A stretch of DNA of 63,777 nucleotides, counting the filler, from Collodictyon triciliatum (lineage: Eukaryota), in assembly GCA_043381765.1 (NCBI GenBank). It is 6 parts of 6 records of this genome, joined end to end, with 100 filler letters (N's around TTAATTAATTAA, not from the genome) between each part and the next. Parts side by side here need not be neighbours in the genome. Positions count along the whole stretch, not along the records: positions 1 to 12,888 come from JBHJMP010002084.1; positions 12,989 to 25,841 come from JBHJMP010002085.1; positions 25,942 to 38,793 come from JBHJMP010002086.1; positions 38,894 to 51,734 come from JBHJMP010002087.1; 2 more parts are not named here. The stretch is one strand, 5' to 3'. Position 1 is the stretch's first letter, and each line of letters opens with the position of its first letter. The translations under genes were made by a program, and so were the position numbers. The notes under the pieces are model-generated. The model searched no databases. It was given only the letters and a program-made list of their open reading frames with translations, and was not told the origin of the DNA. This document shows, piece by piece, positions 2,531-49,800 of the stretch.

Positions 2531-5500
2531 TCAAACATCAACGTCAGCACCAATTGATGCCAAGACACTCATGTTAGTGTCTTTGCTGGTTCGGGTGGCG
2601 CTCTTAAAGCCAGACTTGAATCTGCTAACCAGGGAATTGAAGCTGCGACCGGAGGTCGAGCTGCCGACTCTGGCCTGGGGTGTGGAAGATATAATAAGTT
2701 GAATTATGCTGTTGAATATATGTTTCACCAAGGGTGGCTTGTATCATGAATTGGTCAACATTTTTTGTTTTGTTTTTTTTTAAAAAAAAAACAGACAAAA
2801 GTGATAGAAGAGAAGGAATATTTAATTACTTCGACATTATTGCGGAAGGAGAACAGAATAAGTGCACACGGGACGAACTCGGCCAGAAGAAATGGAATGA
2901 GTGCGACGTTAACATCATTTACTGACACATATAGAGTAACAACAAGATATGTGCATTGGAAAAGAAATGATAACGTGCAGATAATTGTGACAATAGCAAT
3001 CTAAACGGAAGTGAAATTTAGATATAGGATACATCAAGAAACGATATAAAGGAAATGCTTATGAGTCCGTTATATTTGTTTTTTGTTTTTTTGTTTTTTT
3101 TTAAAAAAAAAACAGTAATATAACATTTAACATTCTTCATTACCTTCCTAAGTGTGGCCTTTTGACGCTCCGACCTTTGGGCAATCTTGAGAGATGACAT
3201 CGTCCTCCACAAGCGTCCGCCGTAGTAAGAAAATCCAACAGACATTAACAACGCGATTGAGGCCAAAAAGTAGTAGTAAATCTCCTTGACGATTGGGATA
3301 TGTTCCTAGTGTACCAAGGCTTTAATTTTTGGTTTGGGGAACATCCTGATAGCTTGATTCAACCAAGCTCTCTACTCAAGAATTCAGAGGCGCGATGTTG
3401 TTTTTTTTTCTTATTCAAATAAGGTACTTTATATATCGTGTAATGTAAGGAAACCTGGTCAATAGTTTCTGACAAAATTACAACGACAATAAAGAAGATA
3501 TACATAACTCCGTTGGTCTGGTACAGTAGTGGCCTTAAATAAGACACGAAGATAAGGTTCTCGCGCATCCCTCTAGTATTTGAGGTAATCTCCGCCCTAA
3601 GATATTCAATGCAAATAAGGGTCTATTTCTTTGCTTAGTTATGTTTTTCTAATAACGGATGGAATACATACTCTAATGTCAGCCACATCTTGCAAATCAA
3701 GAGAAAATAAAAAAAAAAAGGTATGTAAAGTCAAAAAATCATACCAGAAAAACAGTAAGCATGAATATGCCGTAAAGAAAAGCAAAGTTGGCAAGTCATA
3801 GAGCAAAATTTGCTGCAAACTTCCATCTTCAATTTTGTCCATGGCAACGAGGAGTATGTAAGTGCCCCGAACAGTTGTGAATACGAAAATGATTACGTGC
3901 AGTAGTTTTTGGACAGATAAGCTAAACTTGCGAGTAATATATATATCAGAGCGCAACATGATTAACATTTGAATCATGCAACAAAAGGCGAGGATGAAAT
4001 CTAGCGCGGCAACTGCATAAACGAATGGATGTGACGTAGTTGAGGATGAGTAAGAATCCCAGTTGGGATACAGCATCGCCGGGAATATTACTTTCTAATT
4101 GATGGTGGAAATGAATTATGACTGGGGTTGTAGTCTACTGTTGCTATTGGACAACTTAAAATTTAATTAAGATTTACTTTACTTGAATCGAATAAAGGGA
4201 AAAAAGATTTACTTTACTTCCTCCAGTTAAGGCCATATAAGCACATGTAGATTCCCCATGTTTTTCAGTGTCGAGAGAAAGCGGAATAAAATCACCACCA
4301 CTCATGTCCCTGGTGATTTGGTTCAATCGAGTGTAAATGGAAAACGACATATAATTGTAATGTACAAACAAATCAAAATATTCATCAAATACGGTAATGA
4401 ATAGTAAAGAATTTTTTTAAAAAAGAACCACTGAAAACTGTATACAGATTGAAATAAAATGACACATATAAATAAAATCATGAAGCACAACTCTCAATTG
4501 GAAATGAGTGATATTTAACCTGATAACGAAGTCTGCATGGGTGAATGCTTTTGATACGGTTATGTCACTTCTTCTAGAAGAGCATATATACAGGGATGTC
4601 AACTCCCCAACAAATTCAAGCACCAAGCCATCAGAGGTAATTTGGCCAACATATTCTCCGCCATGCTTGATAACACTGTAGGGGTTATTTTTTTCCTAGA
4701 GATAATATAAAGACATGTGAATATTTCCTCCATATTCCACAAAATTGATCAGATTTTTTTCCTTTATTCGATTCGAAGTCAATATTAAAATAATAATAAT
4801 TAAAACTCTATGAATGGGGAAAAAAAAAACTCTGAATAATACAAGGGTATGACAGTATCAAAACCAATTTACGGTAACTGGTTCTCATATGTATGAAAGG
4901 GAATGAAAATAAGAAACAAAGCAAAAGAAACAAAGAAACAAAATAAAATATATACTTGACTAGCGGCACCGGACAGTTGGTCAGAGGAAACAGAGTCTGG
5001 AATATTTCGACGAAACTGAGAGGCAGGAACGATAGATATGTTGGTATTGATGCAGTTGTAAGCAATAGGAACACTGAGCTTCGACACCTTGACGCTGTAA
5101 GTCCCTGTCTTTTTTATTTTATTCAATGCAATTCATAATTAAAAGGATATCTTATGTCCATGAAATACATAATTTGTGTATCGCCCAGCCAATTGCGTAC
5201 GACAAGACACCATGAGCTGTTAGCATATTTCTACCTACCATGACCCAATCCTCCAATCCTGAGCAAAATCGTTGCATACCAGCGCTGATGACACGCACGG
5301 ATGATGAGTAGCAATTAGATGGGACATTAGGGTCATCGCCGCAGTCACATGTGATGTAGCGCAAAGTATCAAGAATAGCGGAATATCTATTTGGAAGGAG
5401 AAGAAAAAAGAAGGAAGGTACGTGGATGTGTTGTAATTAGAACTCGATAGAAGGAATAAGAAAAAGAAAAAGGAAAAAGAAAAGGATAAGAATAGGAATA

Positions 5501-8500
5501 AGAATAGGAATAAGAATAGGAATAAGAATAGGAATAAGAATAAGAATAGGAATAAGAATAGGAATAAGAATAGGAATAAGAATAAGAATAGGAATAAGAA
5601 TAGGAATAAGAATAGGAATAAGAATAAGAATAAGAATAAGAATAGGAATAAGAATAGGAATAAGAATAGGAATAAGAATAGGAATAAGAATAGGAATAAG
5701 AATAGGAATAAGAATAGGAATAAGAATAGGAATAAGAATAGGAAAAGGAAAAGGAAAAGGAAAAGGAAAAGGAAAAAAAAAACTACTAACCCTCCCGAAA
5801 TGAAACTAACAAGGTAAAATTCAATAAAATGACATGAAAGGTGCAAAAGAACAACCGACTCAAGGATATTAATAGATCTACAGAAGTAATATGACTGACC
5901 TGCACAAAAGCTCTGTTTGAAAGTACGATGCATATCTCAGAGCAATTTGCTTTTCGATAGTCTCATACACTTTCCCGAAATTCAATGTATTCCCATACAT
6001 ATTTACAGGTATGAACTCATACGGCTTCCAATGCATGGGAATAAGCTCGGCTATCCAGTAGAAAGCGTCGTTATGGAAAATAGAATAGCGTATGGATTGA
6101 AAGAGAGAATGAAACGACATAAATACTTTCATAAAAAGAAAACCTCCAGTCGTCCAGTTTGATTTCAGCCAAGAATAGACAGGCTGGAAATCTCCTCCGC
6201 ATGATTCACACACGTCTGGTGTTTTCCCACTAAAGACAGTCGACGAGGGGGTATCTCGACAGGCCTATGGTTGATTTTTCATTAATCTTATTGTAATGAA
6301 TACAGTACTTCGGCGATGGTAATTTGGTTTTTTTTCTAACCTCTTCGTGTGTGCATGAGTCGTACGAATGTCGGGTATGGACCCAATCCCCACCCTTACA
6401 TATATAAAAATATGATCACTTTTATAATTAAAGGAAGTAGATATCTAAAAATCATAGAAATAATTCTACATAATAAGTGCAGTCCTCCTCTGTGATTAGA
6501 TAAGGGTCGAGACATCCATCATTGACAAAAATTTCGTAGTCAAAACAGTAGGGAGATCCCTTTACATCGACAGAAAATCCAAATCTGCACGAATAAAAGC
6601 TATGCAATATACTTTAATTACTAACTGACAACAACATCTACTCTGAAATCAAATATTGACAATCAAAATGGAATTTGAGCATGGGCGAGATCTGGTGGAA
6701 TGATATGAAAAAGGCGATATGTTAATTATATGCAAACTATAAGTATACCAGTGAGCCAGTTCACTTGTTTCGACACCGATTGCAAAAATGTTCGTGCAGT
6801 CTGGATGGAACCAGTTAAAGTAACTGAAATCATTGCATCGACCACCTATACAGTTTGATTATTTTTTAATATAGGTATATAAACAGAATTAAAAAAAGAC
6901 GGCCCCCGTTTACTAGTTTTTTATAGCCTTTCTTTTCAAAAGATTGTTTTCTTAAAATTGCAGTAAAGTTATGTCAAGGGTATTTATGAAAAGTTTTCAT
7001 TACTGTCACTTTTCGTGCACTGTTCGTATGAGCAGGTTTGGGACCTTGTCAAGCCACNNNNNNNNNNNNNNNNNNNNNNNNNNNNNNNNNNNNNNNNNNN
7101 NNNNNNNNNNNNNNNNNNNNNNNNNNNNNNNNNNNNNNNNNNNNNNNNNNNNNNNNNNNNNNNNNNNNNNNNNNNNNNNNNNNNNNNNNNNNNNNNNNNN
7201 NNNNNNNNNNNNNNNNNNNNNNNNNNNNNNNNNNNNNNNNNNNNNNNNNNNNNNNNNNNNNNNNNNNNNNNNNNNNNNNNNNNNNNNNNNNNNNNNNNNN
7301 NNNNNNNNNNNNNNNNNNNNNNNNNNNNNNNNNNNNNNNNNNNNNNNNNNNNNNNNNNNNNNNNNNNNNNNNNNNNNNNNNNNNNNNNNNNNNNNNNNNN
7401 NNNNNNNNNNNNNNNNNNNNNNNNNNNNNNNNNNNNNNNNNNNNNNNNTGTTTATACAGGAAACTCGACAAACGATTCACATTTAAAAAGAGAATGATAC
7501 TACAGTTACAACGGACCTTCAAAGAGCTGAAATATTAAGTCTTCAAAAGCCACCAGAAAAAATAGCATTTTGATGTTTTGACTAATTTGGCTATACCGAG
7601 GTACGCGCAGTCGCAGAGGTCCAACTCAGCCCAACATAATGTCGCATAAGTTGCCGATGCACAAGAAATACACGATAAATCGCAATCTTCTACATTCAGA
7701 CACTAAATAATGACGCAGTGTCTTGTAAATGATAATGTTTATGAGCGCATAAATAATGGCAATGTAGATAAATTAGTATTTGTTACAAAAAAAAAATCTT
7801 AATATTTTGTTACTGGGGGCGTGTAAATGATAAATCATGTGAAAATAGGGAAATGATAGGAAAAGGGCTAAAAGAGAAAATTCCAACCTGATCGTCAGCA
7901 AGGCCTAAAAAATAATAGTCTCCAAAAAGGCAAGTATTTCCACATGTTTCGTTTGAGTTGTAGAGCCCATCACTCCATACTCTACCATTGTACCAAACAC
8001 CATTATGTGATTCACATGTGTCTTGATCTACACCATACATCATGCATAATCCCGTCCCAGAAGCCATATACTGATTTTTGTATATTCATCTTTAGTATAT
8101 TACAGAAATATACGGATTTATAAAATTTTAATTTAAATCGTTAAAAAAATGATTACATTGTCCCAAATTAACAAAGGATCATATACTCCAGTTGAATTGT
8201 TGCATGTCCAGTTCTCATTGGTACATGTAGTTTCATTCTTTGATGGTAAGTAACAAAACGAGAACCCACAGGAGTAATCGTCGCCATCCTTCGAATTAAA
8301 TTTGAACATTTAAATAATTCTCTATGATAATTTATTAAAAAATCCTTCTTCTTCTTTTTTTTGCGTGCAAGAGTAAAACGTTACAATAGAATATCGAGGA
8401 CAAATCTCAGAAGGGAGGCAGTCATCGCGAGTATAATTTGGGAAAACGCAAGGGTTTGGATAAAATGAGTAGTCATAAACTCCTCCGTACGATGCGCAAA

Positions 8501-9702: not shown

Positions 9703-9741
<39 letters not shown>

Positions 9742-11946
9742 TAAAATGAAAAATTATGTGCATATTTTTGGAGCAAATAAAATTTTAAGAACAGCATTGT
9801 ATTTTAACAAATGATTTAGAATGATTGTGATTATTGCCTTATCCTATCACCCAGAAGAGATGTATATATTGGTATGTCAAACACTGTAGGACTTGATGCA
9901 CAACACTGTTCGTAGAGGAGCCTATTTTATGGTTATCAATTAAATACACTTAGGAAACCAATGCATATCTAACTATTATTATCATAAGAGGGGTTGCAAT
10001 AGATTGTAATAGGAAGACAAGAAACCAGTGGTCGTGTGTCACCTACATGGTGTTACAGCAGGGGTCTGTTTTCCACTCTGGCTCGGTGTCCATATACATG
10101 CAAAAGTTGGTCTCATAGTGCGTTACTGACTCCGTTGAATTCAGAAAAGACTTTAGCAAAGACAGACAGCCAGCGAAGTGATTCGAAGAAAACAACAGGG
10201 GGACCTTTTAAACGGTGTTGTATTTGACTAAAAGAAATGCTGCATTTTGTGTTGAAATGTATATAGTTTACATTAATATCCTGTTTCATATTAATTCCAA
10301 ATGATTAAATATAATATAATAAAATAAAACCCTCCATCTCATCAAATTCATCGATATCCAGTCTGGTGACGTACTAATTGAATTAATGGTAGTTTGCATT
10401 TCGGTTGCAAGTTTATTGATTTCTGAGTAAACACACGGAAAGGTCGGTTGTGTGAATCCAGTGATAGAATCGGAGTAGCCCTATATTCACATATATTTTA
10501 GGAATGTGGAAGGTACAGATTTTTTTTTCCCTTTATTCGATTCAAAGTGTAGCGAGGTTATGCCATACAATGTGGAAGGTACAGATATTCAACACAACGA
10601 AGACGATGAGTTTTCGGTTATCATGCGTGGTATTCTCATTCTAGTAAGGATTCATACCTGCCCGTTCGCATCTGTAATGTTTTCAGATAAGTAAAGCTCG
10701 CAAACTGAAAAGTCGAAGTCTTGAGCAAATCGTCTTCCAGTGTAGTCAATTCCCAAGTCTCTGAAAGTGATGTAAAATCCGACCGAAATACGTGCCTTCA
10801 GAGCAACGGAGCCGGACTGGAGAATACTGCAGACAGGTCAATGGAGGATTTGGAAGAACACCGGAATAAACAAGGCAGAAGTCAGTGTGAAAACGTATCA
10901 CTCAATGACGTAAATATACACACTTCTTAAGTATATATGACGAATTGGATGGATCAGCTTTGTGCCAACACTATATTGCTTCATAAATATGAATATAACA
11001 CAAACTTTGTCACTTTCAGTAGCTCCAGGAATGAGTCCTCGGCCGGCGGGAGCGGAATCAGATACATGGGAGGCATATTGCTTTCTTTGGATGTATCGCT
11101 ACAGTCCACTGCATTTATTGGAAAGGAAGAAAGCTGCACCCCACCGCAATTCATTTCAAAGAGCCCTAGCTGCTTCTGAACAACAGGGGGCATGCAACCA
11201 CATATATCAGAATTCCAACACATCTTGAGAGGGCTCCAATCACTGACGTTCAGTCCCGTAGGAGGCTTATTCATCATCAAAGACTCGCCGTTAACAAAGA
11301 GCTCACTGTCTGTGTCCACGCTAAAAACTGCCATTTCCATGCTGCGTGGTTGCAAGTTTATCAGCAGATTAATACACGACTTTGTTTTTTTTTTTTTCTT
11401 CCTTTCAATTTTTTGCGGGGATGGTGGAGATTCAGGCTTTGGAATACATGACTTTGTATGCATTAAGAGCTGAAAATAGCTTGATTTCTCTTAGTGATTG
11501 TAGATCATTAATTAGACTTCTTACTTGTTCAGGTCATCCATGATAACTCGCTTGACTTCCATCGTTTTGCTTGTAATGACGAAGCCATGGGCAAAAATGG
11601 CTGGAGCATTTTTATTTTTATTTTTGGTAAAATATGGTGTTTTTTATTTTATTTTTGGTAAAGTATTTTATTTTATTTTTTACATAAAAAGGGTCCATCG
11701 TCCCTATAACTTGAGTATATAGAGTTTCCTTTTATTAATGTTTATTTTGTTTTTTATTTATCTTCTAAGGCAATTTAAAATGATCGGTTAAAAGATGCGT
11801 GATAGAGAATATAATTCAAAAAAGATAAATGTTTTATACATCAACGGACACTACCTCAGGTTATGCATCTATTTCAGAGGCTCAAAATAGATCCAATAAA
11901 AAAAAAAACCTGATACAACTGCGACAAGGAAGGCAGAAACAGCCAT
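2531..11946 (-). CDS. Multi-exon signal peptide + long Cys-rich ectodomain + THH1/TOM1/TOM3-like 7TM receptor-like protein
   Basis: Exon 1 MAVSAFLVAVVS splices to AIFAHG (signal peptide). Many Cys/Trp-rich exons follow. TM exons include LLYDLPTLLFFTAYSCLLFFWAEI, GFSYYGGRLW and LLAEFVPCALIL, typical of the TOM1/THH1 family. The last exon is 2531-2674. The gene spans the N gap at 7058-7447. Confidence 0.8.
4169..4219 (+). mobile_element. Family A retroelement 3' stub (19 nt) with 16-bp TSD
   Basis: AAGATTTACTTTACTT (4169-4184), then GAATCGAATAAAGGGAAAA, then AAGATTTACTTTACTT (4204-4219). Confidence 0.8.
4754..4779 (-). mobile_element. Family A retroelement 3' stub, no clear TSD
   Basis: TTTTTTTCCTTTATTCGATTCGAAGT matches the family A end on the minus strand. 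Confidence 0.65.
5452..5780. repeat. Intronic compound microsatellite (AATAAG/AATAGG)n + (GAAAAG)n
   Basis: Direct inspection. Confidence 0.95.
10503..10586 (-). mobile_element. Family A retroelement 3' stub (48 nt) with perfect 18-bp TSD
   Basis: AATGTGGAAGGTACAGAT at 10503-10520 and 10569-10586. The insert reads, on the minus strand, GTATGGCATAACCTCGCTACACTTTGAATCGAATAAAGGG-A(n). Confidence 0.9.
11371..11457 (-). mobile_element. Family B retroelement 3' stub (57 nt) with 15-bp TSD
   Basis: AATACAYGACTTTGT at 11371-11385 and 11443-11457. The insert on the minus strand, CCAAAGCCTGAATCTCCACCATCCCCGCAAAAAATTGAAAGGAAG-A(n), aligns with 2341-2397. Confidence 0.85.
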
Positions 11947-13295: not shown

Positions 13296-16200
13296 AAAAG
13301 GGACATTGTCTATGCTCGAACAGTTTATGAGCGATTCTTGTACTATTTTCCGACTGCGGTTCGATTTTGCATCCTAGCTACTCCATTACCAGAATAATAC
13401 TTAGGATAACCCCCCGAAAAGCATATATATATTTTGTTCTGTACTAGAGCCTTTTTTCTTTCTTTCTTAATTATTAGGGGCGCGTTTGGGCTCAATATGC
13501 ATCTCATGAAATTAGAGAAAAACAAACATCGAGTGTAGAGGCTCTCTTCAAAAGATGTTTGCTTTCCGTACCAAACACTGAGTTGATGAAGACTTACATA
13601 GAGTATGGAGGCTCTCTCCTTTTCCCTTAATGTTGACAAGTTGCTTCTCTTAATTCTTTATCCTTTGTGATTCGCTCTTGAAGAATTTTTGAAGAACATT
13701 ACGTGTCTGTCTGGATGATTCCCAACGATAATGATCATTTATATTCCTTTAAGCGCATACCCAATTCTTTATTTCATATCATCCCTGCTATCTAAATTAG
13801 CTCCTCTCTATTATATATTTTCTGGAATTACATTGCCACGGCTAGCCTTCTTTTAATCTCCATTATTCTATATTTTCAACTAATATGCAAATCGATTTTG
13901 CCATTCAGCTACACAAAATCTCGGCGTGGTACTGACCCTCGCTTCAACGACGAAATCATACGTGTATATTCTTTCGCAATACAACATATCGGGACTGATC
14001 CAATGTCTGGATCTATCTGGATGGATTATATCACCTTCCTTACAAAAATATCGGTATAATTTCTCACATGATTGTAATGAACGTCACTGCTTTAAATGAT
14101 CTGAATTTTTTCGGATACTCAATTAAACTGCTTAACATACATTCTTAATCTCTGCAATAGAAAACGTTATCGAAAAAGCAGAATTTTATCTATACAGCCT
14201 AGAATTGTATAGTGCACTAATAGAACTTATCTCTCCCTAAAAAAAATAATAAAATACCTGCAGCAAGAAGAGGTCCGCCACCACGAGCGCCTGAAAACCG
14301 TCTTCAAGGAAGTAGTAAGGCTTCGAATTCAGCTCTTTACAATTTTTTTTTATTGTTTTAAAGTGGTAGGATTTCGAGATTAAATGGTTATTGATATTTT
14401 CTTTGATGCAAAACAGTTCAATATTCCTCTCATTCACATGGAGGACATGATGAAGGAATATGAAAGTTATGAAAACAAGCACAATCGCTCAACAGTGAGT
14501 TAAAATTGCCCCATTTTTGTGGTTTCGTTTTTCCGTAACAAGCATAATATATCGCATGTTGTATTCTAAATGATGAACTTATATCTTGGTGAAACTTCAT
14601 CTCCTTCAAATATTATTTCAAAAGAACATAACATCTTTATATCATGTTGCAGGCCCGAGAAACGATAGGTGAAAAGAACAAAATCTTTCAAGCAACAAAA
14701 AATTATTTAAAGGAACTTAAGGTGTCGTATGCTTATTTATTCTTCTTTATTTCTATGCATGTCATAGTACTGCTATCTTTGACAGTTATCAATTCTTGTT
14801 TGATTATCAGAGTGTGACAGACCTCATCAACCGAAACATGTTTGCAAAACCTCTCACATGCAAAGTTCATGACGATAATCAGGTGGTGACATATACTAAG
14901 TCATATTGCGCAGCATTTTTGTTAACAAAAGTGACGCTTACAATTATTCCAGTATCGAGTTTGGCAGAGTCTTATCGCCTTGGAAAAGGAGAATCGTCTT
15001 TCGATGGAACAAAATGTGTGGAGAGCCCGAGTTGGATTCTTTTACAACCAAATGATTCAGTACTTCTATCATTATCCGGATATTTGGTAAGTTTAAATTG
15101 GTAGTGATTGCTATATTTGAGACCTATAAATGTATTTTGTAGCAGTAGTCATTTGCAGACGTTTTAGGTATTTTATGTATATTATTTTAATGTCTTTTTT
15201 ATGTTGCTGCGTAAACATGTCCCCCTCTTTTTCTCTTTTTTTCTCTTTTTCCTCTTTTTCCTCTTTTTCTCTTTTTCCTCTTTTCCTCTTTTTCTCTCTT
15301 TTTCCTCTTTTTCCTCTTTTTTTTTCTCTTTTTCCTCTTTTTTCTCTTTTTTCTCTTTTTTCTCTTTTTTCTCTTTTTTCTCTTTTTTCTCTTTTTTCTC
15401 TTTTTTCTCTTTTTTCTCTTTTTTCTCTTTTTTCTCTTTTTCCTCTTTTTTTCCTCTTTTTCCTCTTTTTCCTCTTTTTCCTCTTTTTCCTCTTTTTCCT
15501 CTTTTTCCTCTTTTTCCTCTTATTCTCTTTTTTCCTTTCATTATCTTGTCCAACAGGATTGATGCAGCGCGTTTTCAAATACAGTATCAAGGAATCAAGG
15601 AGGCGACGAAGCTTTTTGATGATGCTATCAAAGCTATTCCGGACAGGTTTATTATACAATCCTAAACTAGATTGTGTCATAACGTTAATAAAAAGCTATC
15701 CTGATCGTATTTTTCTTCCTGTATTTTAATTGTTCCTTCATATGAATCATGATGACATTCAGAAAATTCATTTCCAATCCAACCCACATCTTAACCAATA
15801 GCCCCTTACTTCGGCTCGTTTACGCTGACTTCCAAGAGCAACGGCACCTCGAAAAAGTAAACATCTTTTTCTCCATTGAAATATATTTGATGTAACCGAA
15901 CTCTGGAGTAAATAAAAAAGCAAAAAATATTGATTATGTTTGCTTTTGTGTTCTATGGTAAATGTCCGAATATAAATATGGCATAGGAAACTACGATAAT
16001 ATATGAAGATTTGATTCGAGACATCCCGAGTACTCTCGCTCATATTCAATATATGCGATATGTTCGAAGAGTTAAGGTTGCTTTTCACATTAGATAAAAT
16101 CGACAAATAATTATCAAATTAAATGCCATCACAAGACAATCATCATTTTCCTTCTCTGCAACAATGTCATTTTTTTTTATTCTTCCTTTCAATTTTGTGT

Positions 16201-18882
16201 TTGCAACAATGTCATGTTATGTATTGGCAACAGGGTGACAATGAAGCCAGAAAAATATTCATGAGGGGAAAAAAGATGCCTGGGTGCACCTATCACCTCT
16301 ACGTTGCTGCGGGTATGCTGAGTTTCTTTTCCGACGATAGTCTTCCTTTTCAGCTATGTATATTATTAGCAAAATAATCATATACAATCAGCCAATATTG
16401 AGCTCTATGTGAACCGAAAGCCGGAGAAGGCCAAGAATATTTATGAGCACGGAATGGAGTTTTTCTCAAAGGATCCAAACTACATAAGACATTATGTAGA
16501 CTTTTACACCAGACTTGACGAGGACATCGGTAATCATTGCTGAACCGACAAGAATAGGCGACATAAGATGCAACCTTGCCTTTCTATCTCTATCTATCTT
16601 TATCTTTATCTCTATCTCTATCTCTATCTCTATCTCTATCTCTATCTCTATCTCTATCTCTATCTCTATCTCTATCTCTATCTCTATCTCTATCTCTATC
16701 TCTATCTCTATCTCTATCTCCATTTCTGTTTCTGTTTCTATTTCTATTTCTATTTCTATTTCTATTTCTATTTCTATTTCTATTTCTATTTCTATTTCTA
16801 TTTCTATTTCTATTTCTATTTCTATTTCTATTTCTATTTCTATTTCTATCCATTCATTACCACATATCACCAGGTTCTCGGGCCTTTTTTGAAAAGCTGC
16901 TGAGTCAGAAAGATTCAAACGCTGTTGAAAAGCATGTAATTATGAACGCTGATGAATTTTTAGAGCTTACACATGTCTAAATCCAAAATATGCGACTTAT
17001 TGTTAACCAAAATTCGGTAAGGTTTGGAATCAATTTATGGAGTTTGAATGCGAAAGGAACGACCTAAATTTGATATCATCGGTGGAAAGTAAAAAGGGGC
17101 ATGCTCTCAATGAACGTAATGCGTTATTTCTATGCATGTATCCGAATAATTCTTTCTGGATGGGGTTCATTACCATATCAATCGTTCATCCAGTTGCCGC
17201 GTTGACGCTGACACATCGCTACCAATTCATCGATTTGTGGCCTTGCACCGATGTTCAGATGAATCATATTGGTAACGCACAGACAAAATAATCATTTGGC
17301 GGATGCATAATGAATATATGATATTGCAGTGAGAAATTTGGTTTCACGTGTTTTAAACTTGACAAGTTTTTCTTCACGTGACATTAATTTTGCAAATGCT
17401 CAAACAATTTGAAACATATAGCTCATGTTCGTGAATTGCGTCAGTCTGGCAATGGATTAAGGCACTGTTTTATTCCTATCCGACTATTGTTATTTTTATT
17501 ATCATTACTCTTTCTTCTTCTTCTTTTTTTTTTTTTGGAAACGTTACTGGCAAACCAATATACACCAAATAAAATAATAATATAGGCATATCATCATCAA
17601 TAATTAGTAATTATTTGCTTTTGTTGGAGAAATGTCCCCATAGTAATATTTTGTACTAAAGAGAATCATCCAAAATGGAAACCTAGGCCTAAGGACAGAG
17701 ATGAAGCAACAAAGACAAAAGGCTCAAGCGCAGCACCAGAGGATGTTGCCATGCCAAACCTCACCGCCGTTTGTCAATTGAACATTTTTTTCAATTTTGG
17801 TTTTTTTTTTTTTTACTGTTTTTTTTATAATACCTCTAAGACTTACCAAAATCTTTTTCTTCTATTTCGAATATCTCCCTTTTCATTCTTCTTTTCGCTC
17901 TTTCCATCAGCTCATTCCATTAAGAGATTACGACATGCTCAATGCCGTCCGTCACATGCTTCCCCAAGCCCTGATACGCTTCATGTCTAAGTTGCACTCA
18001 AACTTTGTCCCGCAGGGTAATTAAATCTCAATTATAAACAAATAAAGCAATCAAAAGACAAACCAATAATATGTTTCATGTTTGCCATCACCATGAATTT
18101 ATATTTATGTAGAAATCGTGTCGAATCCTTCTTGTCTCTACCACAATGAACAAACATTAGCTTTTCTCTCCGTATCCAGGGCCCCAAATAGACCCCCTGA
18201 CTCTATGCACGGCGATTCTGGAGGCCCAGATTGCACTTCCTAGCTCCCTGCAACACATCGCAAGAGACGAGGTGAGTCCACAAACACCACAACTGCGTCC
18301 TAATCCATCAATTTGTGAAAAAACAAGAATAAAAACAAAAACAATGAAGACCATTGATATACAACAAGAGATCATATGCACACATATATATCAACGAAAT
18401 TTTAATGTCTAACGCAATACTAAATATGAAACGAGCAGAAGCACAGCCAGAAAGGTTCTTGTAAGATGCCTCTTACTATTTACGATTTCTCTTAATCCTG
18501 CACCGCCGTATGAAAAGTTTTCCCAACAGCAAGATGAGTATCTTTGCTGTAAGATAGGCACTGTGAAAAGGCAGACTAAAGCCTATTTGTTTTATTTCTT
18601 TTCCTAATCCTCGCAACAGTCCAAAACATGTCTTATATCTGTTGAAGTAACGAGCTTCTATTTCTTGAAAACGCATGATAATAGCTGCAGATTCACAAAG
18701 GAAGCGAGACCGAGATGACGACGATGACGAAGGTACGCGTTTGTGATTGGAATGGAAAGTCCCTTTATGTCTTGATTAATCAGCTGTTTGCTTTTCAGGC
18801 GTCCGTCCCAACAGAAAATCTGCTGGACGCTCTTGAACTGCAAGCCGAGCGGGCACCAAATAAACGAGAGCCTTTTTTTTAA
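13296..18882 (+). CDS. CSTF3: Cleavage stimulation factor 77 kDa subunit (CstF-77/Rna14/Su(f)), HAT repeats, 5' truncated
   Basis: Spliced exons give ARTVYERFLYYFPTAGRVWAQY, FAIQHIGTDPMSGSIWMDYI, RVGFFYNQMIQYFYHYPDIW, CTYHLYVAA, RYQFIDLWPC and YPGPQIDP. The 3' end is approximate. Confidence 0.9.
15225..15540. repeat. Intronic pyrimidine-rich ~9-mer repeat (TTTTTCCTC/TTTTTTCTC)n
   Basis: Direct inspection. Confidence 0.95.
16157..16215 (-). mobile_element. Family B retroelement 3' stub (31 nt) with perfect 14-bp TSD
   Basis: TGCAACAATGTCAT at 16157-16170 and 16202-16215. The insert on the minus strand is AACACAAAATTGAAAGGAAGAAT-A(n). Confidence 0.85.
16582..16850. repeat. Intronic microsatellite (TCTCTA)n then (TTTCTA)n
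   Basis: Direct inspection. Confidence 0.95.
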
Positions 18883-39340: not shown

Positions 39341-39788
39341 CGAAATCTTGGTTTCTTCTCTACTTGTCTGATTTCCTCCTTTTTCTTACCTTTGCCTCTC
39401 TTTCTGTTGAGACACAGCACCACTCAATCACTGATTTATGGGGCCATTCACGAAACTGCAGTGTTTGATTGATGAAGAAAATAAAGAGAATATCTTGGCA
39501 CGCTTCATGATTTTGATATATTGATTTCCTTAACTATTCATGTTGTTTTCATCAGCGGTGGTGTTGCAAGAAAGTCTTGATGAACTGTTTCAAATTACCT
39601 TGCAAGTGCGGAGCTCGATTATAAACCCTTGTGTATCCAAAATGTTCTCGTTGCAATTCTTTCTGCTCCTTCCTTCTGCCTTGTAAATAATAATTAAATA
39701 TATTCCACAATAAGATAATGCAGCACGCTTTCAGAAATCGGCCGGAAATTCCGCTGCAATCACAACTCGCGCTTACACAGACGAAGTT

Positions 39789-39837
39789 GATGGCGTGGGA
39801 TTTTTTTTTTAATTCAATTCAAAGGGATGGCGTGGGA
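39789..39837 (-). mobile_element. Family A-variant retroelement 3' stub (25 nt) with 12-bp TSD
   Basis: GATGGCGTGGGA at 39789-39800 and 39826-39837. The insert on the minus strand is CCTTTGAATTGAATT-A10. Confidence 0.75.
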
Positions 39838-39978
39838 CGTTTATCCATAATCGAATATGTCCAATGCCCGTGAGTGTGGTAAAAGAAAGATCGTTCTGAG
39901 CCCGGCTGGGTTCGATTAACTTCTTAGTTCTCAATATTGATGTTCAAACAATACTTTATGCGAATAAACTTATTATCT

Positions 39979-40425: not shown

Positions 40426-41323
40426 ATGAGTTCGGCTCTAGGATTGCGGGCGAGAAGAAAACAAGTCTTGACCTTGGTTTGAACCTTTTTTTGATTACAT
40501 TTTATATGAATTCCTTATTGTTTTCTAATAATTATAGTTTTATTATAGTTGCACCTTTACTTATTACCGCTGTCTCTAAATGACAGACCTCGTTCTAAAT
40601 TCATACTTTGCGAGGTTATCCCCGACTGTTTTTATTTAGCTATAATTTTACTTGTATCTGTAACGGACCCATATGAAATATAGACAGAAAGAGCAGCCAC
40701 GAGAATCAAAGAATTACTCACTTCAAAGAGTGAAAATACAGTGGGTGTTCGAGTTGGAGTTAAAACGCGCGGATGCAGCGGCCTCAGCTATACCATGGAT
40801 TACGCAAATGAGCAAAGGAAACTTGAATCAGTGGTTGAACAACACGGTTTTTTTTATTCGTTATTATAAATAATGCATTCTTTTCACCTGACATTCATTC
40901 TATGACGATTTGAATTGAAGGAGTTCGAGTGTTTGTGGAGCCGAAAGCTGAGATGTATTTGATTGGGACAGTCATGGACTTTGTTCAGGACGAGTAAGAT
41001 CAATTCTTTTGTTATCAGAATCACGTCCATACTTTTAGATATTTACAATTACTTCTATCCGCTTCGAATGAATAGAAGGAGAGAAATGGAGAGATACATT
41101 CCAAGTTTTGCTACATGGTTCTATATATTTTTTTCCTTTATTCGATTCAAAGTTACATGGTTATATATTTAAAAAAAATAATGGGCTTAGGGTCAAGGCA
41201 GAATTTGTCTTCCAGAATCCAAACAAAGCTGGAGAGTGCGGTTGTGGGGAAAGTTGGTATTTCAAAAAGGATGAACTTGTGCAACAGGCACCCCCAGAGC
41301 CACGCGTGGATATCCCCCAATAG
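40426..41323 (+). CDS. ISCA1: Mitochondrial A-type Fe-S cluster assembly protein, 4 exons
   Basis: VLTLTERAATRIKELL, VRVGVKTRGCSGLSYTMDY, LIGTVMDFVQD and EFVFQNPNKAGECGCGES. All three conserved Cys are present. Confidence 0.93.
41112..41170 (-). mobile_element. Family A retroelement 3' stub in ISCA1 intron 3 with ~17-19 bp TSD
   Basis: TACATGGTT(CT)ATATATTT at 41112-41130 and 41154-41170 flanks TTTTCCTTTATTCGATTCAAAGT. Confidence 0.8.
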
Positions 41324-42340
41324 ATTGTATATTTGCACAGTTTGAACATGACCAGAATCGAACGTAAGAACACGGCACTCTAAGCACAAATCAGAAACGA
41401 AGGCGAGACAAGGCAAGTCACTCATCAGTTCATGACAAATTCGACGCAGCTCCAGATATACAACCGAATATTGGGAGGGTTCATAAAAGTCTTTCGGAAA
41501 CAATATAAATAAAATAAAAATAAAAAAGGCTGCATCTCCAAATAGTTTCGCTGTTGCATTTTTTTTTTTAAGAATTAGTCTATTTCCATCACTTATCAAT
41601 TTCGTTTCAAAAAAGAAATATGAATAATCTAAAGGAATATAATATTGGGTGCTAAATCAATTGGCTGTGTTCTGCACACTTGAGCGAGGCGCTGGCTTTG
41701 TAGCTGCTCTTGGGCTCTCGCTTGTGTGGTGGTGGCGCCTATTAGGTTGGCGTTATGGGGAGAAGGGGTGCAGAACCTTTTTCTTATGTGGAAAATATAT
41801 TATTATTTTACATTTTTCACAATTTGTCATTTTGTAATGTATTAGTTTGTGCCTATTATGCTATAAGCAGACATCATGTCAATATAACAATCAAAATAAT
41901 GTGATTGCGTCATCACAATATGCAAAATTACAAACAAACCACATGTCTTGGCCATAAATCTATGACCAAAAATAGATATATGCACCACATATCCGAATTA
42001 GCGCCAAACACTACAATATCACTACACACCGTTATAGCATAGCTCCTGACCGCTACTCATACCGAAAGCAGAACCCTGGTCTCTTCCACAGCCTTGAAAA
42101 CAAAGACAAAAAAGCCAACAACATATTCAACACCTTAAAAAGATACTGAATACCCCACAACCTGCACACACCAAACACCCAGCAGCAAGAATCATTCCAC
42201 AACCACAGAGACGCTCACAGCGTTGCCACCCCACACAAAACCAAGCAAGAAGAGAAAAGAGAAGCACAGATCACACAACCACAACCACAACCACAACCAC
42301 AACCACAACCACAACCTCAACCACAGCTAGGATCCCCGCC

Positions 42341-43427
42341 ATGCTGTCGAAAGTCGCCACCCGCTCCGCAACCGCCCTCGCGCAACTGACACGCGCCTCT
42401 GCCGTGCCCCTCTCGCGCCGCACATACTCTGTACGTCGAGACAGACACACACACACAGCATCCCCTTCCCTCCCCTCCTCTCCCCTCTCCCCTCCTCTCC
42501 TCTCCTCTGCCGCACGTGCGACTCACGCCGACGCACGCGCCCAGGCCAAGGCGGACAGCCACGGACACAAGGGCCGCCACAGCAAGTCGTCGGACATCCG
42601 CGAGGTCTTTGCGCATCTCGTCCCGCATCTGCGCGAGCACACGGCAGCCATGAAGAAGTCGTACGGGCAGATGCCTCTGGGCACGGTGACTGTGGACATG
42701 GTCTGTCGCCCACCTCTGATCTGGCCTCATCTCATCTCGCCTCATCTCATCTGATCTCGCCTCCTCATCTCATCTGATCTCGCCTCCTCATCTCATCTCA
42801 TCTCATCTCGCCCCAACCCCATCACACGCAGGCGTACGGCGGGATGCGCGGCATCAAGGGCCTCGTCTCGGAAATCTCGCTGCTGGACGAGCAGGAGGTG
42901 CGCGGTCTCTTTCTTCTCTCTCACCCTCCCATCCACACGCACACGCCCTCTGCATCGCCCCGCCAGAGACGCGCCCGCCTAACACCCGATCCATGGCAAT
43001 GCCATGCAAACCCNNNNNNNNNNNNNNNNNNNNNNNNNNNNNNNNNNNNNNNNNNNNNNNNNNNNNNNNNNNNNNNNNNNNNNNNNNNNNNNNNNNNNNN
43101 NNNNNNNNNNNNNNNNNNNNNNNNNNNNNNNNNNNNNNNNNNNNNNNNNNNNNNNNNNNNNNNNNNNNNNNNNNNNNNNNNNNNNNNNNNNNNNNNNNNN
43201 NNNNNNNNNNNNNNNNNNNNNNNNNNNNNNNNNNNNNNNNNNNNNNNNNNNNNNNNNNNNNNNNNNNNNNNNNNNNNNNNNNNNNNNNNNNNNNNNNNNN
43301 NNNNNNNNNNNNNNNNNNNNNNNNNNNNNNNNNNNNNNNNNNNNNNNNNNNNNNNNNNNNNNNNNNNNNNNNNNNNNNNNNNNNNNNNNNNNNNNNNNNN
43401 NNNNNNNNNNNNNNNNNNNNNNNNNNN

Positions 43428-43479
<52 letters not shown>

Positions 43480-45892
43480 TCTCCCTCTCCCCCTTTGTAC
43501 GCTTCAGTCAATTCCCGCCCTCTCAACTCATCAGCTGCTGCGAATGTCTGACTCAGCCCATGAAACATGAGAGAAAAACAAGCGATACTGACTCTGCTTG
43601 GCAATTTTTTTTTTTGTCGTGATCATGCGCTTGCTTTTACCAATGCTGTGCGCCCGCTCCAAGCCGTTCACTCACCCACCCACCTACCGCATAACCCTCC
43701 CAGACCTTCCCCCGCACGCTGCACCCGATGTCCCAGCTCTCTGCCGCCGTCCTCGCCCTCCAAGTATGCAGTCCTTATCTCTTTCTACAGTACTCCTACC
43801 AATATTTATTTATAATTGCTCCTTGTGTTGTTTCCTTCCTTCTTTCCTCCTTTCTTTCTCTCTTTTCCTCCCTCCTTCGTTAATCGCTCGTATCTACAAC
43901 AGCACGACAGCGAGTTCGCCAAGGCTTATGAGAAAGGCATCCACAAGAACCACTACTGGGAGCCTGTTCTGGAAGATACTCTGAACTTGGTATGGCCTCT
44001 CCCCTTCTACCTTCTCTTCCCTCTTCTCGGTCGTTCATTAGGCTACATCCCAACAAAGGAAAGATATAGTTGGAGAAGGTTGCAGTCGTACACTCAATCG
44101 TTCTATTATTTGACTCCCAAAGGTTGCTCGCCTGCCCACTGTTGCAGCTATGATATACCGCCATACTTACAAAAACAGCGAGTTCATTGCTGCCGACAAC
44201 TCTCTTGACATGGCTGCAAATTACGCTCACATGATGGGCTATGACAATCCCACCATCCACGACCTCTTCCGCCTTTACCTTGTCATCCACTCGTATGTTT
44301 GACATTCGCACATATGCCCCATATTCTGGATTCTATCTCTCCTTAACATCTTTCCGTGCATGACTCGAATCCCTTCCATATTGTCTGCCTGAAATTGTTT
44401 CATTCTGCTATATCCCCAGTTCCTTCCATGAATCTTTGCTATGCTCTACCATGTCCTGTATTGTCGCACTGGATAATGAAAAAAACTATTAGCTTATACG
44501 AACCATACCCCTTTTAGTGACCACGAATGCGGAAATGTCAGCGCACATGCCACACACTTGGTTGGCAGTGCCCTTTCTGACCCATATCTTTCCTTCTCTG
44601 CTGGCCTCAACGGACTTGCTGGCCCCCTTCACGGCCTCGCCAACCAGGAAGTTCTCCGCTGGCTGACTGACATCGTGGTACGTTTCTGAGACAATTAAAA
44701 GAACCGATATCCACTCAAATCACCCTTCTGTCAAAGGGAACTTTGAGTGCTATACGATAGAGAAAAGTAAAAAAAAAAAAAATTACCAAACTTTCATTCC
44801 TTCCCATTTCTCTCTCTTTTAATCTATTCTTCGCCGTGGACCCAAACAACATAGTCGATAACGTGTAACACTATCATCTCGCAGGACACTCTTGGCCACG
44901 AGAAGGTTAAGGACCCCGAAAACCTCAAGAAGTACATCTGGGATACCCTGAAGGCTGGAAAAGTCGTCCCCGGATACGGCCACGCCGTCCTTCGTCGTGT
45001 AATTCCCTTTTAATCATCGCTTGGTGGCTCGATCCAGCAACATATTCCTTACCCGTGCCCATAAGATTGTTTCATCACTGACGGGAGAACTCAGTAACAC
45101 GAACTAAATTCCGCATCCGCGTCACAGACTGACCCCCGCTTCACCTGCCAACGCGAGTTCGCCTTGAAGCATCTTCCCCACGACCCCATGTTCCAACTTG
45201 TTGGAGATCTATACCACGTACGCCATTTAATCTTCATACTGGCAGTCTCCCGATTATGTCCTCGAACAATCGTTTGGATGAACTCCGAAGCTCCACTACA
45301 CTCCCAACCCACACTTAACACCAGCCCTTTCTTTTTTAGATCGTTCCCAAGATTCTCCTTGAGCACGGAAAGACCAAGAACCCTTACCCCAACGTTGATG
45401 CTCACTCTGGCGTGCTCCTCCAGGTAGAGACCTGTTCAAAGTCGTGATGACACCAACAAACCTTACCGGAAGACTGTCGCTAAACGAAGATATCTTTTAC
45501 ATCTAGCACTACGGAATCAATGAATCCGGATACTACACCGTCCTCTTTGGTGTCTCCCGTGCCCTTGGTGTCCTTGCCAACCTCGTCCACTCCCGCGCCA
45601 TCGGCCTGGTAAGTAACCCATTCCATGAAAAAAGGCATGAATACGAAAGAGAACACACCCGCAACATCCCGACATTCATCAATTACCGTCTTGTGTATCC
45701 TCGTGTTCGACTGTCCCTGTCCGCTTCACAAACAATCCTCACCAAGACATCACTCACCTCTTCTTCACCCACCCATAATCCTCGCAGCCCATCGAGCGCC
45801 CCAAGAGCGTCGACTCTGCCTGGTTGATTGAGCATGCCAAGAAGACAAACTACACCGCACCTGCTGCCCCAGCCCCAGCCCCCGCGGAATAA
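42341..45892 (+). CDS. CS: Mitochondrial (eukaryote-type) citrate synthase, multi-exon, spans N gap 43014-43427
   Basis: Presequence [18 protein letters not shown], then [70 protein letters not shown] and PIERPKS. Confidence 0.95.
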
Positions 45893-46627
45893 AAAGGATG
45901 GCCGTTCGCTCCCGTTCATCCTTTTGCTTGGAGCACCAGCCCGCCCACCCCGCGAAAGGAGCGCACCGCTAACATCCCCCAAAAAACCGGAACACTCGCA
46001 GACTCGCCCAACAAACAACTCCTGCTTTTGACACCGACAGAGCACACAGTTACACATTATCGGCAATAGACCATAAATCTCACCCTAACGCACACCAAGG
46101 CCATCCGAGCTCTGCCCCTTTTCCTCCCTTTTCCACAAGCGGGTGGACGGATTCAGACACCGTTGAACCGCCGAGAAGCCTAACTTGTGATTCCGTTGGA
46201 GAGAAGTGCACCTATTTTCCCATTGCAGAGAAATTAAATGAATAATCTATGAATTCCTCCATTTTTGCTCAAATCCTCTCACCAAAATCAAGTTGATCAA
46301 AGTTGTGTGATCGCGAAAGGAGATCAGGGCAAAATCAGAAGGAAGCCCTGTCCGGGATAAAGCGGGTGTGTGCGTGTGTGGATGGACGGAACATCCACGG
46401 AGAGGACGTGTTGACTGAGGCCTCGGGCGTTGGTGCGTCCATGACAGAATCGACAGAGACGCAAGGCGGAGTCTTTGGTTTCCTTTGGGCTGTCCAAACT
46501 ACGATAATTGTCTTTGTTGTTGTTTTTTGTTTCTTGGGAAAAGTGTTTGAGTTCAAAACTGTTACTTTTCGCCAGCAGCAATCAAGCCTCCTGCGTCTCT
46601 CTCCTCCCCGTGAAAATATGCGCTGGC

Positions 46628-46800: not shown

Positions 46801-46883
46801 TTTTTTTTTTTTTATTCTCGTGGTGTGTTTGTTCATTGTCTGACGCGGGTGTCTTATCTTTTCACTATTCTGTGCGATATAGA

Positions 46884-49800
46884 ATGCCGCCCAAGTTTGC
46901 TGACCGATTCCGCCAAACTGTGTCTTCTGCGTCGAGTTCCTCTGCACTGTTGTCAGGTAATTGTTCTTTTCTTCTTCTTTATTTCAGTATATTTTTCTAC
47001 TTGGTGACTGAGAGCTCGGACAAAGTTGATGTCACAAGTCTTGAAAGCTTACGTAAAATATTGGGCTGAGACATTGTAGAGATAAGAAGAAAGATAGAAT
47101 AAAAACAAAACGGAAAGCATAATTGCAGTGTATACTGAAGGGGAATATGTCAACCAGTTCAAGATATAACATTTCAGACGATGGAAAATCTGAGTGCCCT
47201 AGATGAATCGCTTCCTGTCAATTGAACTTTTAAATAGGAGCCTTTCAAAAAGAAGTTTTCAAAATACCATGATAATCATAAACATATATGCCACAGAGTC
47301 TGCAGACTTCACCATCGAGTCCAATCGCCACCTTCCAAAATCCTTACACCGATCGGCGTGAGTATATCACGCTCTGGATAACATGTGTTATACAAAACAT
47401 GCTTGCCCAACGTTATGTTTTTTTTTTACCATGCAATTTAGTCACAAATGAACCTTTAGCCCCGCTCCAAGTGAGTTTGCTGTGGTCCGAGCATCCGATA
47501 TTAGAAGAATTCGGAATGCAATATCTGAAGTGAAACATGAAGACGAATTTGAGTTGCGAGAGAAACAAGTGAGTTTTGTTATAAATATTGCTTTTTCATG
47601 TGGATTGCCTCATACTATCTCTTCTATGTGTAAAACCAGAATCAATCCCGACTAATTGGATGAGATAATCAAATCGGTATGAATACTAAATCTTTGATAT
47701 TATCAGAGACTTGCAGACCATTTGAAGTCACTGGAGCGATCAAAAATGTGGCCTGATACGCTTGAAAACCAGAGAGAGATAAAGATACGAAAGTCCAAAG
47801 AAAGGGCTGAAGCTGAGGAAGAAGAGAGATTGAAAATAGACAGAGAGGAATCCTTATATCAAGTATCATTCACTTTCCAATTAACACTCTACTTCCTTCT
47901 TCTTTGAATCGAATAAAGGAAAAAAAAAACACTCTACTTTCTTAAAGGCAGATAAATAAAATATTATATTTATATCAATTCACAGAGTCACTATTTTCTC
48001 ACACAAGGAATTAATTATGATTTGTAGGAAGAGTTGAAAAGAGAGATGAATGAAAAGGCATGGAAAATGCTGCAGCAACAGTCTGTTGGAATGAGACAAC
48101 TGCAAAGCAAACAGCTGCTTTGTGACGTCCTAGAAGTATGAAACTTATACATATCGAAGCAAAAATATACTCGATGATTTGCTCTAATGGTATACATATA
48201 TATGTATGATAGCATCTGGTATTAGTAATCACGCACTATTGACGGCTAGGAAAGAGACGCTCAGAAAGAGCTTGCCAAGCAGATCGAAGAAAGAAGAAAG
48301 AGAGAGCATGATGAATGGGTTCAAAAAGAAAAAGAAAGAGCCAAGCAGGAAGCTGAGAAGCTAAACGGACGTGACACAGTTAGTCTGCAAAAAAAGATTG
48401 ATTACGCAAAGGCCTTAGAGGAGCAACAGCACGAAATTGTCAAGAAGGCAATTGAAGAGAAAAAGGTTATCCCTGTTTTATTTCTCCTCCTTCTGTGTGC
48501 TATACTATTTTGCAATACGATTATTTTTTTTAAATATTACTCATGAATCCCTATTAACCACAGGGTATAATACAAATAAAGATAGTTTGTGAACAAAATA
48601 AGCACGAAATATATGACATACCATTTCAATCATTAGAAAGCAATAGAAGAAAAGAAACAGATTGAGGATTTAGTTCAAAAAGCGACACAAGAGGAGCAGG
48701 CAAAGTTGCAAGAAAAAAGAAGCAGAAATGTCCAGGCATTAGAAGAAACGAGAATATTAGACGAAATGAAAAAGGTAAACTTTTCTTTACTTTTCTGAGA
48801 AAAAGGGCAGGTATATACAGCCTGGAAATGTCGCAGCATTTTCAAAGTATACAAGGGCAGTGGATGAAATTAAAATAGAACAAAAAAAAACTTTTATAGG
48901 AAATTGAAAGTCGAAAGGACGAGAACGAACAAAGAGAATATGAAACAAGCTTAAAATATGTGGAGCGCAAAAACAGGATTGAAACCAGACGCAAGGAGAT
49001 GGAAAGGAAGGAAATTCAGTGAGTATTCGCCACCCTAACTGATTGGTTATTTGTTTTTTCGATGGCTATCCACGCCACTACATTTTACAATAAACAAAAG
49101 GAACGTACAAACACTTGACTGAGTTTTATATGACTGAGAAATCAATTTAAACACGTACTAGGAAACGCGAAGATAGGAATCAGTACCTTCTGGATAATTA
49201 TCACGAGACTGCTGCCCAGAAACGGGCAGCTGAAGAGGAAAGACTAGCGAAATACAACCAGGAAAAAGAAGAGGAATGGCAGAGGAAGCGAGAAAAGGAA
49301 GAGCAGAAACGAATTCAAACAAATATGGTATGACAAGAATGTACATCATGCCATATTAATGAAAACCTCACAAACAGAAAATGCAAATACTTTTGAATTC
49401 AAGCCGCCCATTCGATAGCAAAATATATCTAATTCTATCGTTGATTATTCGCTCGTAAAAATAAATGATTAAATAATTCAAAAAATACAGTCCTTAAAAT
49501 AATAATCAAATGTTTTACTGAGTATATTATTGTTTTGAATTGAAGGAACTTGACCAAGCTCACCAATTCCAACTGGCACAAAAGCACCGGAAGAAACAGT
49601 CTACAAAAGAACACGAACAGAAAATGAAAGAAATCATTGAGGGCCAATACGAAGAGGCACGTCTTGAAGAAGAAGCTATAGAGCAAGCCAAAGTACAAAA
49701 GGCACAGAAGATAAACCACTTCAACTCAAACCAGAAGGTACATCACCATCGTCTGAGTGATACACCCTTCTTCTGGCTAGAAAATAAGATCAATACTGCA

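What the first reader, a model, noticed from the sequence alone, without database searches (positions are those of the whole stretch)
4169..47943. Family A: poly(A)-tailed 19-48 nt retroelement stubs with full target-site duplications
Seen: the motif (A)CTTTGAATCGAATAAAGG(G)-A(n) occurs at 4185, 4754, 10521, 41131 and 47899, with a variant (CTTTGAATTGAATT-A10) at 39801. The copies lie in both orientations on two different contigs. Five of six have 12-19 bp flanking direct repeats unique to each site. Three sites read TT|AA at the element-sense 5' TSD edge (TT|AAGA, TT|AACA, TT|AAAT). Known: a poly(A) tail, variable 7-20 bp TSDs and TT|AAAA nicking are hallmarks of target-primed reverse transcription by L1-clade elements. 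Inference: a recently active LINE or SINE whose insertions almost always abort within ~10-40 nt of the tail. That is far shorter than typical 5' truncation and may reflect host interruption of TPRT or selection on short introns. Standard repeat finders would probably miss these.
Basis: partly seen in the sequence, partly recalled or inferred. Interest (0 to 1): 0.75.

Follow-up and report, generated by a model that had tools for sequence, protein, structure and literature searches.

The report
Ultra-short LINE tail insertions, 18-base cliff
These tiny A-tailed repeats are the last few bases of an L1-type jumping gene; most insertions in this single-celled eukaryote stop within 50 bases, and nearly half at the same 17-19 bases, far shorter than the insertions known from human L1.

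Summary
In detail: six copies, five with site-specific direct repeats. The motif is the 3' tip of an APE-RT-zinc-knuckle LINE (L1/Tx1-like), not a SINE. The genome has 2,268 exact copies of the last 16 nt. In the first 100 of 2,446 tail matches, 95 carry 50 nt or less of the element and 45 carry 17-19 nt; 71 have a TSD against 0.7% in swapped controls. Genome-wide counts fall from 1,830 (last 18 nt) to 650 (last 21 nt), then level near 350: a cliff plus a long-copy plateau of about 5-17%. Two sister LINEs are also mostly short but lack the 18-nt peak. Junctions show 15-19 bp TSDs and chance-level microhomology, unlike truncated human L1. TPRT origin is near certain; why it stops is open: early abortion at a weak RNA stem (about 0.45) or complete copying of short 3' RNA fragments (about 0.33). 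The target is T|AW, not TT|AAAA. The scan had already found this family in other windows of this genome; the genome-wide test is added here. Empty alleles and RNA ends are untested.

The parts
4169..4184 (+). 5' TSD (16 bp) of copy 1
   Evidence: identical to 4204-4219
4185..4203 (+). copy 1: last 14-17 nt of the LINE, one extra G, short A tail; family A or A2 cannot be told
   Evidence: up to 3 nt overlap with the TSD
4204..4219 (+). 3' TSD of copy 1
4754..4779 (-). copy 2: last 18-19 nt (one mismatch) plus A7; no TSD found
10503..10520 (-). 3' TSD (18 bp) of copy 3
10521..10568 (-). copy 3: last 39-41 nt of family A plus G and A tail; 2-nt overlap with the TSD
10569..10586 (-). 5' TSD of copy 3
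39789..39800 (-). 3' TSD (12 bp) of the variant copy
39801..39825 (-). variant copy: positions -18 to -6 of family A, no terminal AAAGG, A10; appears to sit in a coding exon of an EF-hand gene
   Evidence: EF-hand hit, below Pfam cut-off, in an upstream exon
39826..39837 (-). 5' TSD of the variant copy
41112..41130 (-). 3' TSD (19 nt, carries a 2-nt indel) of copy 5
41131..41153 (-). copy 5: last 19 nt plus A tail, antisense in the 197-nt intron 40994-41190 of an IscA-like gene
   Evidence: Fe-S_biosyn E 4e-5, below cut-off; GT..AG and frame read from the sequence
41154..41170 (-). 5' TSD (17 nt) of copy 5
47883..47898 (+). 5' TSD (16 bp, one mismatch) of copy 6
47899..47927 (+). copy 6: 3 extra nt, last 18 nt, A tail (could instead be a diverged A2 stub)
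47928..47943 (+). 3' TSD of copy 6
16157..16215 (-). family B stub (21-23 nt plus A tail) with 14-bp TSD; sister LINE, same phenomenon
11378..11457 (-). family B stub of about 47 nt with a TSD-like repeat
2021..2395 (+). family B 3' fragment of about 370 nt, one of the minority long copies
   Evidence: 87% over 369 nt to a copy in L282

Best explanation
SHOWN: the stubs are independent dead-on-arrival insertions of the 3' tip of an L1/Tx1-like LINE (family A: APE, RT, zinc knuckle, about 100-nt 3' UTR ending AATAAAGG plus oligo-A). INFERRED FROM ESTABLISHED TPRT BIOLOGY: ORF2p nicks an AT-rich T|AW site, primes on the A tail, and the second nick falls 15-19 bp away, giving the TSD. SHOWN: the copied length is biphasic, with very frequent ending within about 45 nt, a cliff at -18/-19, and a plateau of long copies. 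INFERRED (about 0.45): reverse transcription usually aborts before it becomes processive; in family A the enzyme reels in the unpaired last 18-20 nt and stalls at the base of a small stem-loop (-36 to -21, possibly extending to -18), perhaps while ORF2p holds that stem, and host end-joining seals the short cDNA without microhomology. Identity as LINE tips made by TPRT: about 0.95. The confidence below is for the whole statement.
For: RT-to-tail continuity in L091, L067, L097, L092; RVT_1 and zf-RVT; APE-like stretch upstream of the family-A RT in L094. TSD in 71 of 100 against 0.7%. Nested exact counts 2268, 1830, 650 for the last 16, 18, 21 nt, then 513, 340, 366 for words further in; 37 of 37 long copies exact to -18 are also exact to -21, so the cliff is not mutation. 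The peak is tied to sequence, not to distance from the tail: 30 of 69, 7 of 16, 9 of 15 with 0, 1, 2 extra G. It is absent in A2, which shares the last 16 nt (52:21 against 0:4, p=0.009) and in B (3 of 30, p=0.0004). The -33:-24 pair has probability 0.76-0.95 in the young subfamily. Analogies: NHEJ factors shorten LINE inserts (PMC2666801, passages); human ORF2p holds a template stem-loop beyond a 15-nt single strand and splays its base (PMC10830416, passages).
Against: The stem is weak and no better than shuffles (z -0.39 and -0.61), and is mostly lost in longer folds of the two copies tested that have G at -21; no compensatory change was seen. Microhomology at the peak is at chance (16 of 31 against 0.445 expected, p=0.27), whereas about 80% of truncated human L1 have it (PMC2912911); discrete TSDs without microhomology are the signature of full-length inserts (PMC11702581), which favours the rival. 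A2 rests on 4 copies. No RNA or enzyme data.
Confidence: 0.5

Rival explanations
1. The stubs are complete copies of short templates: the LINE RNA is cut or trimmed to a 3' fragment starting at -18/-19 that stays bound to ORF2p; RT runs off its 5' end and is joined as in a full-length insertion.
For: Chance-level microhomology, 1-2 extra nt in 6 of 37 peak junctions, TSDs 15-19 bp in 65 of 71, like full-length human L1 and Alu. No stable RNA structure to stop RT. 32 exact copies end in AA plus 6 or more T (control 0), which would fit uridylated decay intermediates; uridylation and short tails mark L1 decay in human cells (PMC11014359, abstract and passages).
Against: The 23-60 nt class has the same low microhomology (9 of 18), so this host may simply join without it. 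A protein footprint on the shared last 16 nt would give A2 the same peak, and it does not. Only 1 of 8 T-tailed copies examined showed an exact TSD-like repeat. The same paper says uridylation blocks TPRT initiation.
Confidence: 0.33
2. Ordinary truncation plus purifying selection against longer inserts in introns leaves mostly tiny copies.
For: All three families are mostly short; one window copy is intronic. Selection may raise the short fraction.
Against: Cannot give a 2-3 nt peak (45 of 95 against 11.5% under a geometric fit, p=3e-18), an empty 23-25 nt bin, or a family-specific peak; counts level off beyond -46.
Confidence: 0.08
3. Assembly artefact: long young copies are collapsed in a fragmented assembly, so stubs only seem to dominate.
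For: 14,576 contigs; 10 of 10 long copies cut by contig ends or gaps are identical over their last 60 nt; 10 of 74 sites in the 30-nt-or-longer sample are cut.
Against: Collapsed copies still leave their 3' tips and are counted; the cliff lies between -18 and -21, inside those tips; stubs have both TSDs on one contig.
Confidence: 0.05
4. An independent 18-nt micro-SINE or hairpin element with its own transcript.
For: Fixed 5' boundary and more than a thousand copies.
Against: The sequence is colinear with the LINE end and grades into 20-230 nt copies; the 18-mer does not fold (0 kcal/mol); flanks are unique and 18 nt hold no room for an internal promoter (inference).
Confidence: 0.04

Closest known systems
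5'-truncated L1-clade LINE insertions made by TPRT (human L1)
   Same: APE-RT-zinc-knuckle ORF2, AATAAA then A tail, 15-19 bp TSD, AT-rich target, 5' truncation.
   Different: Median element part 18 nt against 503 bp for non-inverted tumour L1, smallest 55 bp (10.1101/2024.08.27.596794, passages) and 712 bp in RPE-1 cells (PMC11702581); sharp sequence-anchored end; no microhomology excess; target T|AW; A run median 6.5. Human studies may miss such short inserts, so the contrast is partly one of detection.
Solitary poly(A) insertions from severely truncated retrotransposition
   Same: Near-immediate end of TPRT (named in 10.1101/2024.08.27.596794).
   Different: There one class among many; here the majority class, with a fixed 18-19 nt of element sequence.
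Full-length L1 and Alu insertions (run-off at the template end)
   Same: Discrete TSD, chance-level microhomology, about 12-16% extra nucleotides (PMC2912911).
   Different: The insert is 18 nt, shows no excess of a cap-derived G among the few extra bases seen, and has no promoter.
Tx1/L1-like plant, lizard and metagenome LINE ORF2 proteins
   Same: Nearest named relatives are 'LINE-1 reverse transcriptase-like' and 'Transposon TX1 149 kDa protein', with PF03372+PF00078+PF13966.
   Different: At most 36% identity among the best 120 of 1,020 hits: a distant lineage.

Membership tests
L1-clade LINE (L1/Tx1) | APE endonuclease N-terminal to RT in ORF2 | tested here: met
   Sister L093: Exo_endo_phos E 2e-16 plus RVT_1. 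Family A copy L094: APE-like stretch 51-55% identical to it, broken by frameshifts and stops, directly upstream of the RT; not itself scored by Pfam.
L1-clade LINE (L1/Tx1) | C-terminal zinc knuckle (zf-RVT) | tested here: met
   PF13966, 32.3 bits over cut-off 27.5, in L092.
L1-clade LINE (L1/Tx1) | RT groups with L1/Tx1 in a phylogeny | tested here: inconclusive
   No tree built. Best solved structure for the sister is human L1 ORF2p, E 7e-45, R2 E 2e-19, but only those two LINE types appeared; named homologues are L1- or Tx1-like.
L1-clade LINE (L1/Tx1) | 3' poly(A) tail after a polyadenylation signal | tested here: met
   182 of 203 family-A-type ends in the fetched loci are A-tailed; part of those loci were chosen by an A-tailed pattern.
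L1-clade LINE (L1/Tx1) | Variable 7-20 bp TSD unique to each site | tested here: met
   71 of 100 against 0.7%; 13-22 bp, mode 16-17; the finder cannot see short TSDs.
L1-clade LINE (L1/Tx1) | ORF1 upstream of ORF2 | not tested
   A 167-aa open stretch lies upstream in L094 but was not scored.
Mammalian L1 target preference | TT|AAAA | tested here: not met
   0 of 71; TT|A 30, TT|AA 19.
Human-type 5'-truncated L1 insertion | Microhomology excess at the 5' junction (about 80%) | tested here: not met
   16 of 31, p=0.0004 against 80%, p=0.27 against chance.
SINE | Own head (tRNA, 5S or 7SL) with a Pol III promoter | tested here: not met
   Upstream of the boundary lies either the TSD or more LINE sequence. 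No Rfam or tRNA scan was run.
Active, polymorphic family | Empty alleles in other individuals | not tested
   No read or contig comparison was obtained. Indirect only: 39 of 66 TSD pairs perfect; identical contig-end copies.

The most novel reading that the evidence does not exclude
The 18-19 nt stubs are complete retrocopies of a defined 3' cleavage or decay fragment of LINE RNA, and the AA-T(6+) copies are retrocopies of uridylated intermediates: a host RNA defence that turns most retrotransposition into 25-bp scars, leaving over a thousand genomic records of where LINE RNA is cut.
Probability: 0.3. Interest if true: 0.78.

Novelty: new variant of a known kind. Interest (0 to 1): 0.55.

Why it matters
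How LINE insertions become 5'-truncated is an open question (PMC2912911 calls it long debated). Here about 1,200 insertions end within three bases (1,830 minus 650), and a sister family sharing the last 16 nt does not. That is a natural control and gives a sharp prediction that one small-RNA library or one in vitro RT assay can test. It also suggests that repeat annotation with a minimum length would miss most LINE insertions in this genome, and at least one stub appears to interrupt an exon.

Tried and rejected
18-nt terminal hairpin as the unit: 0 kcal/mol, -18:-2 pairing at most 0.01 in the young subfamily; rejected. cDNA snap-back at -18: would add C or T-run bases at the junction; only 2 single extra C among the peak junctions printed; not supported. 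A difference in microhomology between peak and longer stubs: suggested, gone in the larger set (16 of 31 against 9 of 18). Length fixed from the A tail: the boundary does not move with the G run. Intron gain: an antisense stub ending at -18 reads as a T tract plus AG, but clean removal needs a TSD ending in AC, and none of the 18-19 nt class TSDs printed does. A de novo TSD scan found no TSD-flanked poly(A)-only inserts outside simple repeats, but did find a 6-nt and two 11-nt stubs and family B (46 family-A, 34 other, 23 in the backwards control). One paper on human L1 lengths was not held.
Full report
Observation. The motif is real and far above chance (6 matches against 0.21). Five of the six listed copies have flanking direct repeats, three perfect and two imperfect; the 4754 copy has none. 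The window is a join of pieces from a 75.4-Mb eukaryotic assembly of 14,576 contigs.

What the motif belongs to. An RT search gave 135 matches. In four fetched loci the RT region runs colinearly into the motif and A tail (L091, L067, L097, L092). L092 encodes RT and a 423-aa C-terminal part with zf-RVT, then about 100 nt of 3' UTR. L094, 90% identical to L092 over 2,240 nt, has a frameshifted APE-like stretch upstream of its RT. A sister family (L093, 57% identical over 576 aa) scores APE and RT in Pfam and matches human L1 ORF2p best among solved structures. Named relatives are L1- or Tx1-like at 36% identity or less. No tree was built and no intact copy was seen; 10 of 10 long copies cut by contig ends or gaps are identical over their last 60 nt against 3 of 26 internal ones, which suggests a young collapsed subfamily.

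Length profile. To avoid bias towards 16 nt or more I searched a 9-nt end plus tail: 2,446 matches, control 23. I fetched the first 100 listed (contigs C1-C203, not a random draw) and dropped none. The element part was 9-16 nt in 23, 17-19 nt in 45, 20-22 nt in 7, 23-25 nt in 0, 26-50 nt in 20, and over 60 nt in 5, two of them cut by contig ends. A TSD score of 9 or more was reached by 71 of 100, against 0.7% with swapped flanks; 38 of the 52 copies of 17-22 nt have it next to the junction. Whole-genome exact counts agree: 2,268, 1,830 and 650 for the last 16, 18 and 21 nt, 513 for -30 to -13, 340 for -46 to -30, 366 for about -85 to -70. All 37 long copies exact to -18 are exact to -21, so the drop is loss of length, not mutation. 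Correcting the 366 with the match rates (16 of 30; 18 of 35) gives about 17% long copies, against 5% in the sample: later contigs are richer in long copies. Stubs under 9 nt and copies with decayed tails are not counted.

Family controls. A de novo scan found a second tail, family B (1,052 exact, control 6), joined to the L093-type RT in L069. Of the first 30 B hits, 28 are 50 nt or less, median 27 (measured against one copy, so somewhat low), but only 3 are 17-19 nt. A third family, A2, shares the last 16 nt with A and differs upstream (62 exact); its 4 copies in the sample are 27-37 nt, none 17-22 (p=0.009). Shortness is therefore general here, and the peak is specific to family A's sequence just upstream of -16.

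Junctions and target. Among all fetched family-A sites with a perfect TSD (73; two with 18-20 unexplained bases set aside, 71 kept), 65 have TSDs of 15-19 bp; the finder needs 11 exact non-A bases and cannot see short TSDs. T is at -1 in 54 (A is excluded there by definition), A or T at -2 in 64; TT|A 30, TT|AA 19, TT|AAAA 0. In the 17-22 nt class (37): 6 have 1-2 extra bases, 15 are blunt, 16 overlap; chance gives 45% overlap. In the 23-60 nt class (22): 4, 9 and 9. Truncated human L1 has about 80% (PMC2912911, passages), and full-length inserts have little microhomology (PMC11702581, passages).

Mechanism. TPRT follows from the enzyme, tail and TSD. For the stop I favour early abortion, with the family-A peak set by a small stem whose 3' base lies at -21 to -18 (pair probability 0.76-0.95 in the young subfamily). 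Human ORF2p holds a stem-loop beyond a 15-nt single strand (PMC10830416, passages); NHEJ shortens LINE inserts (PMC2666801, passages); repair pathway choice shapes R2 truncation (review PMC13586686, passages). Against this, the stem is no stronger than shuffles, and the junctions look like run-off ends. The rival, full copying of short 3' RNA fragments, is nearly as likely. The 32 AA-T(6+) ends (7 of 203 ends in fetched loci) hint at uridylated templates, but only 1 of 8 examined showed an exact TSD-like repeat.

Novelty. Nine literature searches (listings and abstract starts only) showed no LINE family dominated by inserts of about 18 nt; the library lacks most subscription papers, and no supplements were read, including the insertion tables of the two preprints, which could hold very short events. 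The scan itself had reported this family in at least eight other windows of this genome; one of those notes says the fixed start was untested genome-wide. Gene names for host exons beyond the Pfam hits are my reading of the sequence. Verdict: a real, quantified, unusual variant of ordinary L1-type retrotransposition.

Noticed in passing
window 39725-39870: The 39801 copy seems to lie inside a coding exon of an EF-hand gene: the frame is open up to the first TSD copy, a stop follows inside the insert, and the 37 added bases are not a multiple of three. Possibly a null allele or pseudogene.
   Followed up: partly
G000, 32 places; L021, L028, L060, L276, L278, L293, L312: Family A and A2 ends followed by A1-2 and 7-9 T instead of an A tail; uridylated templates or target slippage.
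   Followed up: partly
window 2021-2395, 11378-11457, 16157-16215, 59141-59165: Four copies of sister LINE family B that the finding did not include; the last is doubtful.
   Followed up: partly
L091, L067, L097, L063: Several family-A copies share the same internal deletion of about 700 nt in the C-terminal part of ORF2: a non-autonomous derivative that was itself amplified.
   Followed up: no
L207 (G000:C172), L227, L101: Nested events: a B stub inserted into the tail of an A2 stub, and A stubs inserted into other LINE copies.
   Followed up: no
sample; Minor preferred ends at 12-13 and about 28-36 nt in family A, and apparent clusters near 24, 33 and 42-47 nt in family B; too few to test.
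   Followed up: no
window 57040-57062: 3-mismatch copy followed by A5 with no clear TSD; an old stub or chance.
   Followed up: partly
window 90-431 and 2337-2702: Two similar open stretches; on the other strand the second is the family-B 3' end, so the first is probably another B copy whose tail reads into the simple repeat.
   Followed up: no
window 42098-45900: Frames that look like a citrate synthase with a mitochondrial-type leader (recognised from recall, not scored), on a GC-richer piece.
   Followed up: no
L061 (G000:C929): Best RT hit of the genome, in a long open frame with a compact RT; probably an LTR-type element unrelated to the stubs.
   Followed up: no
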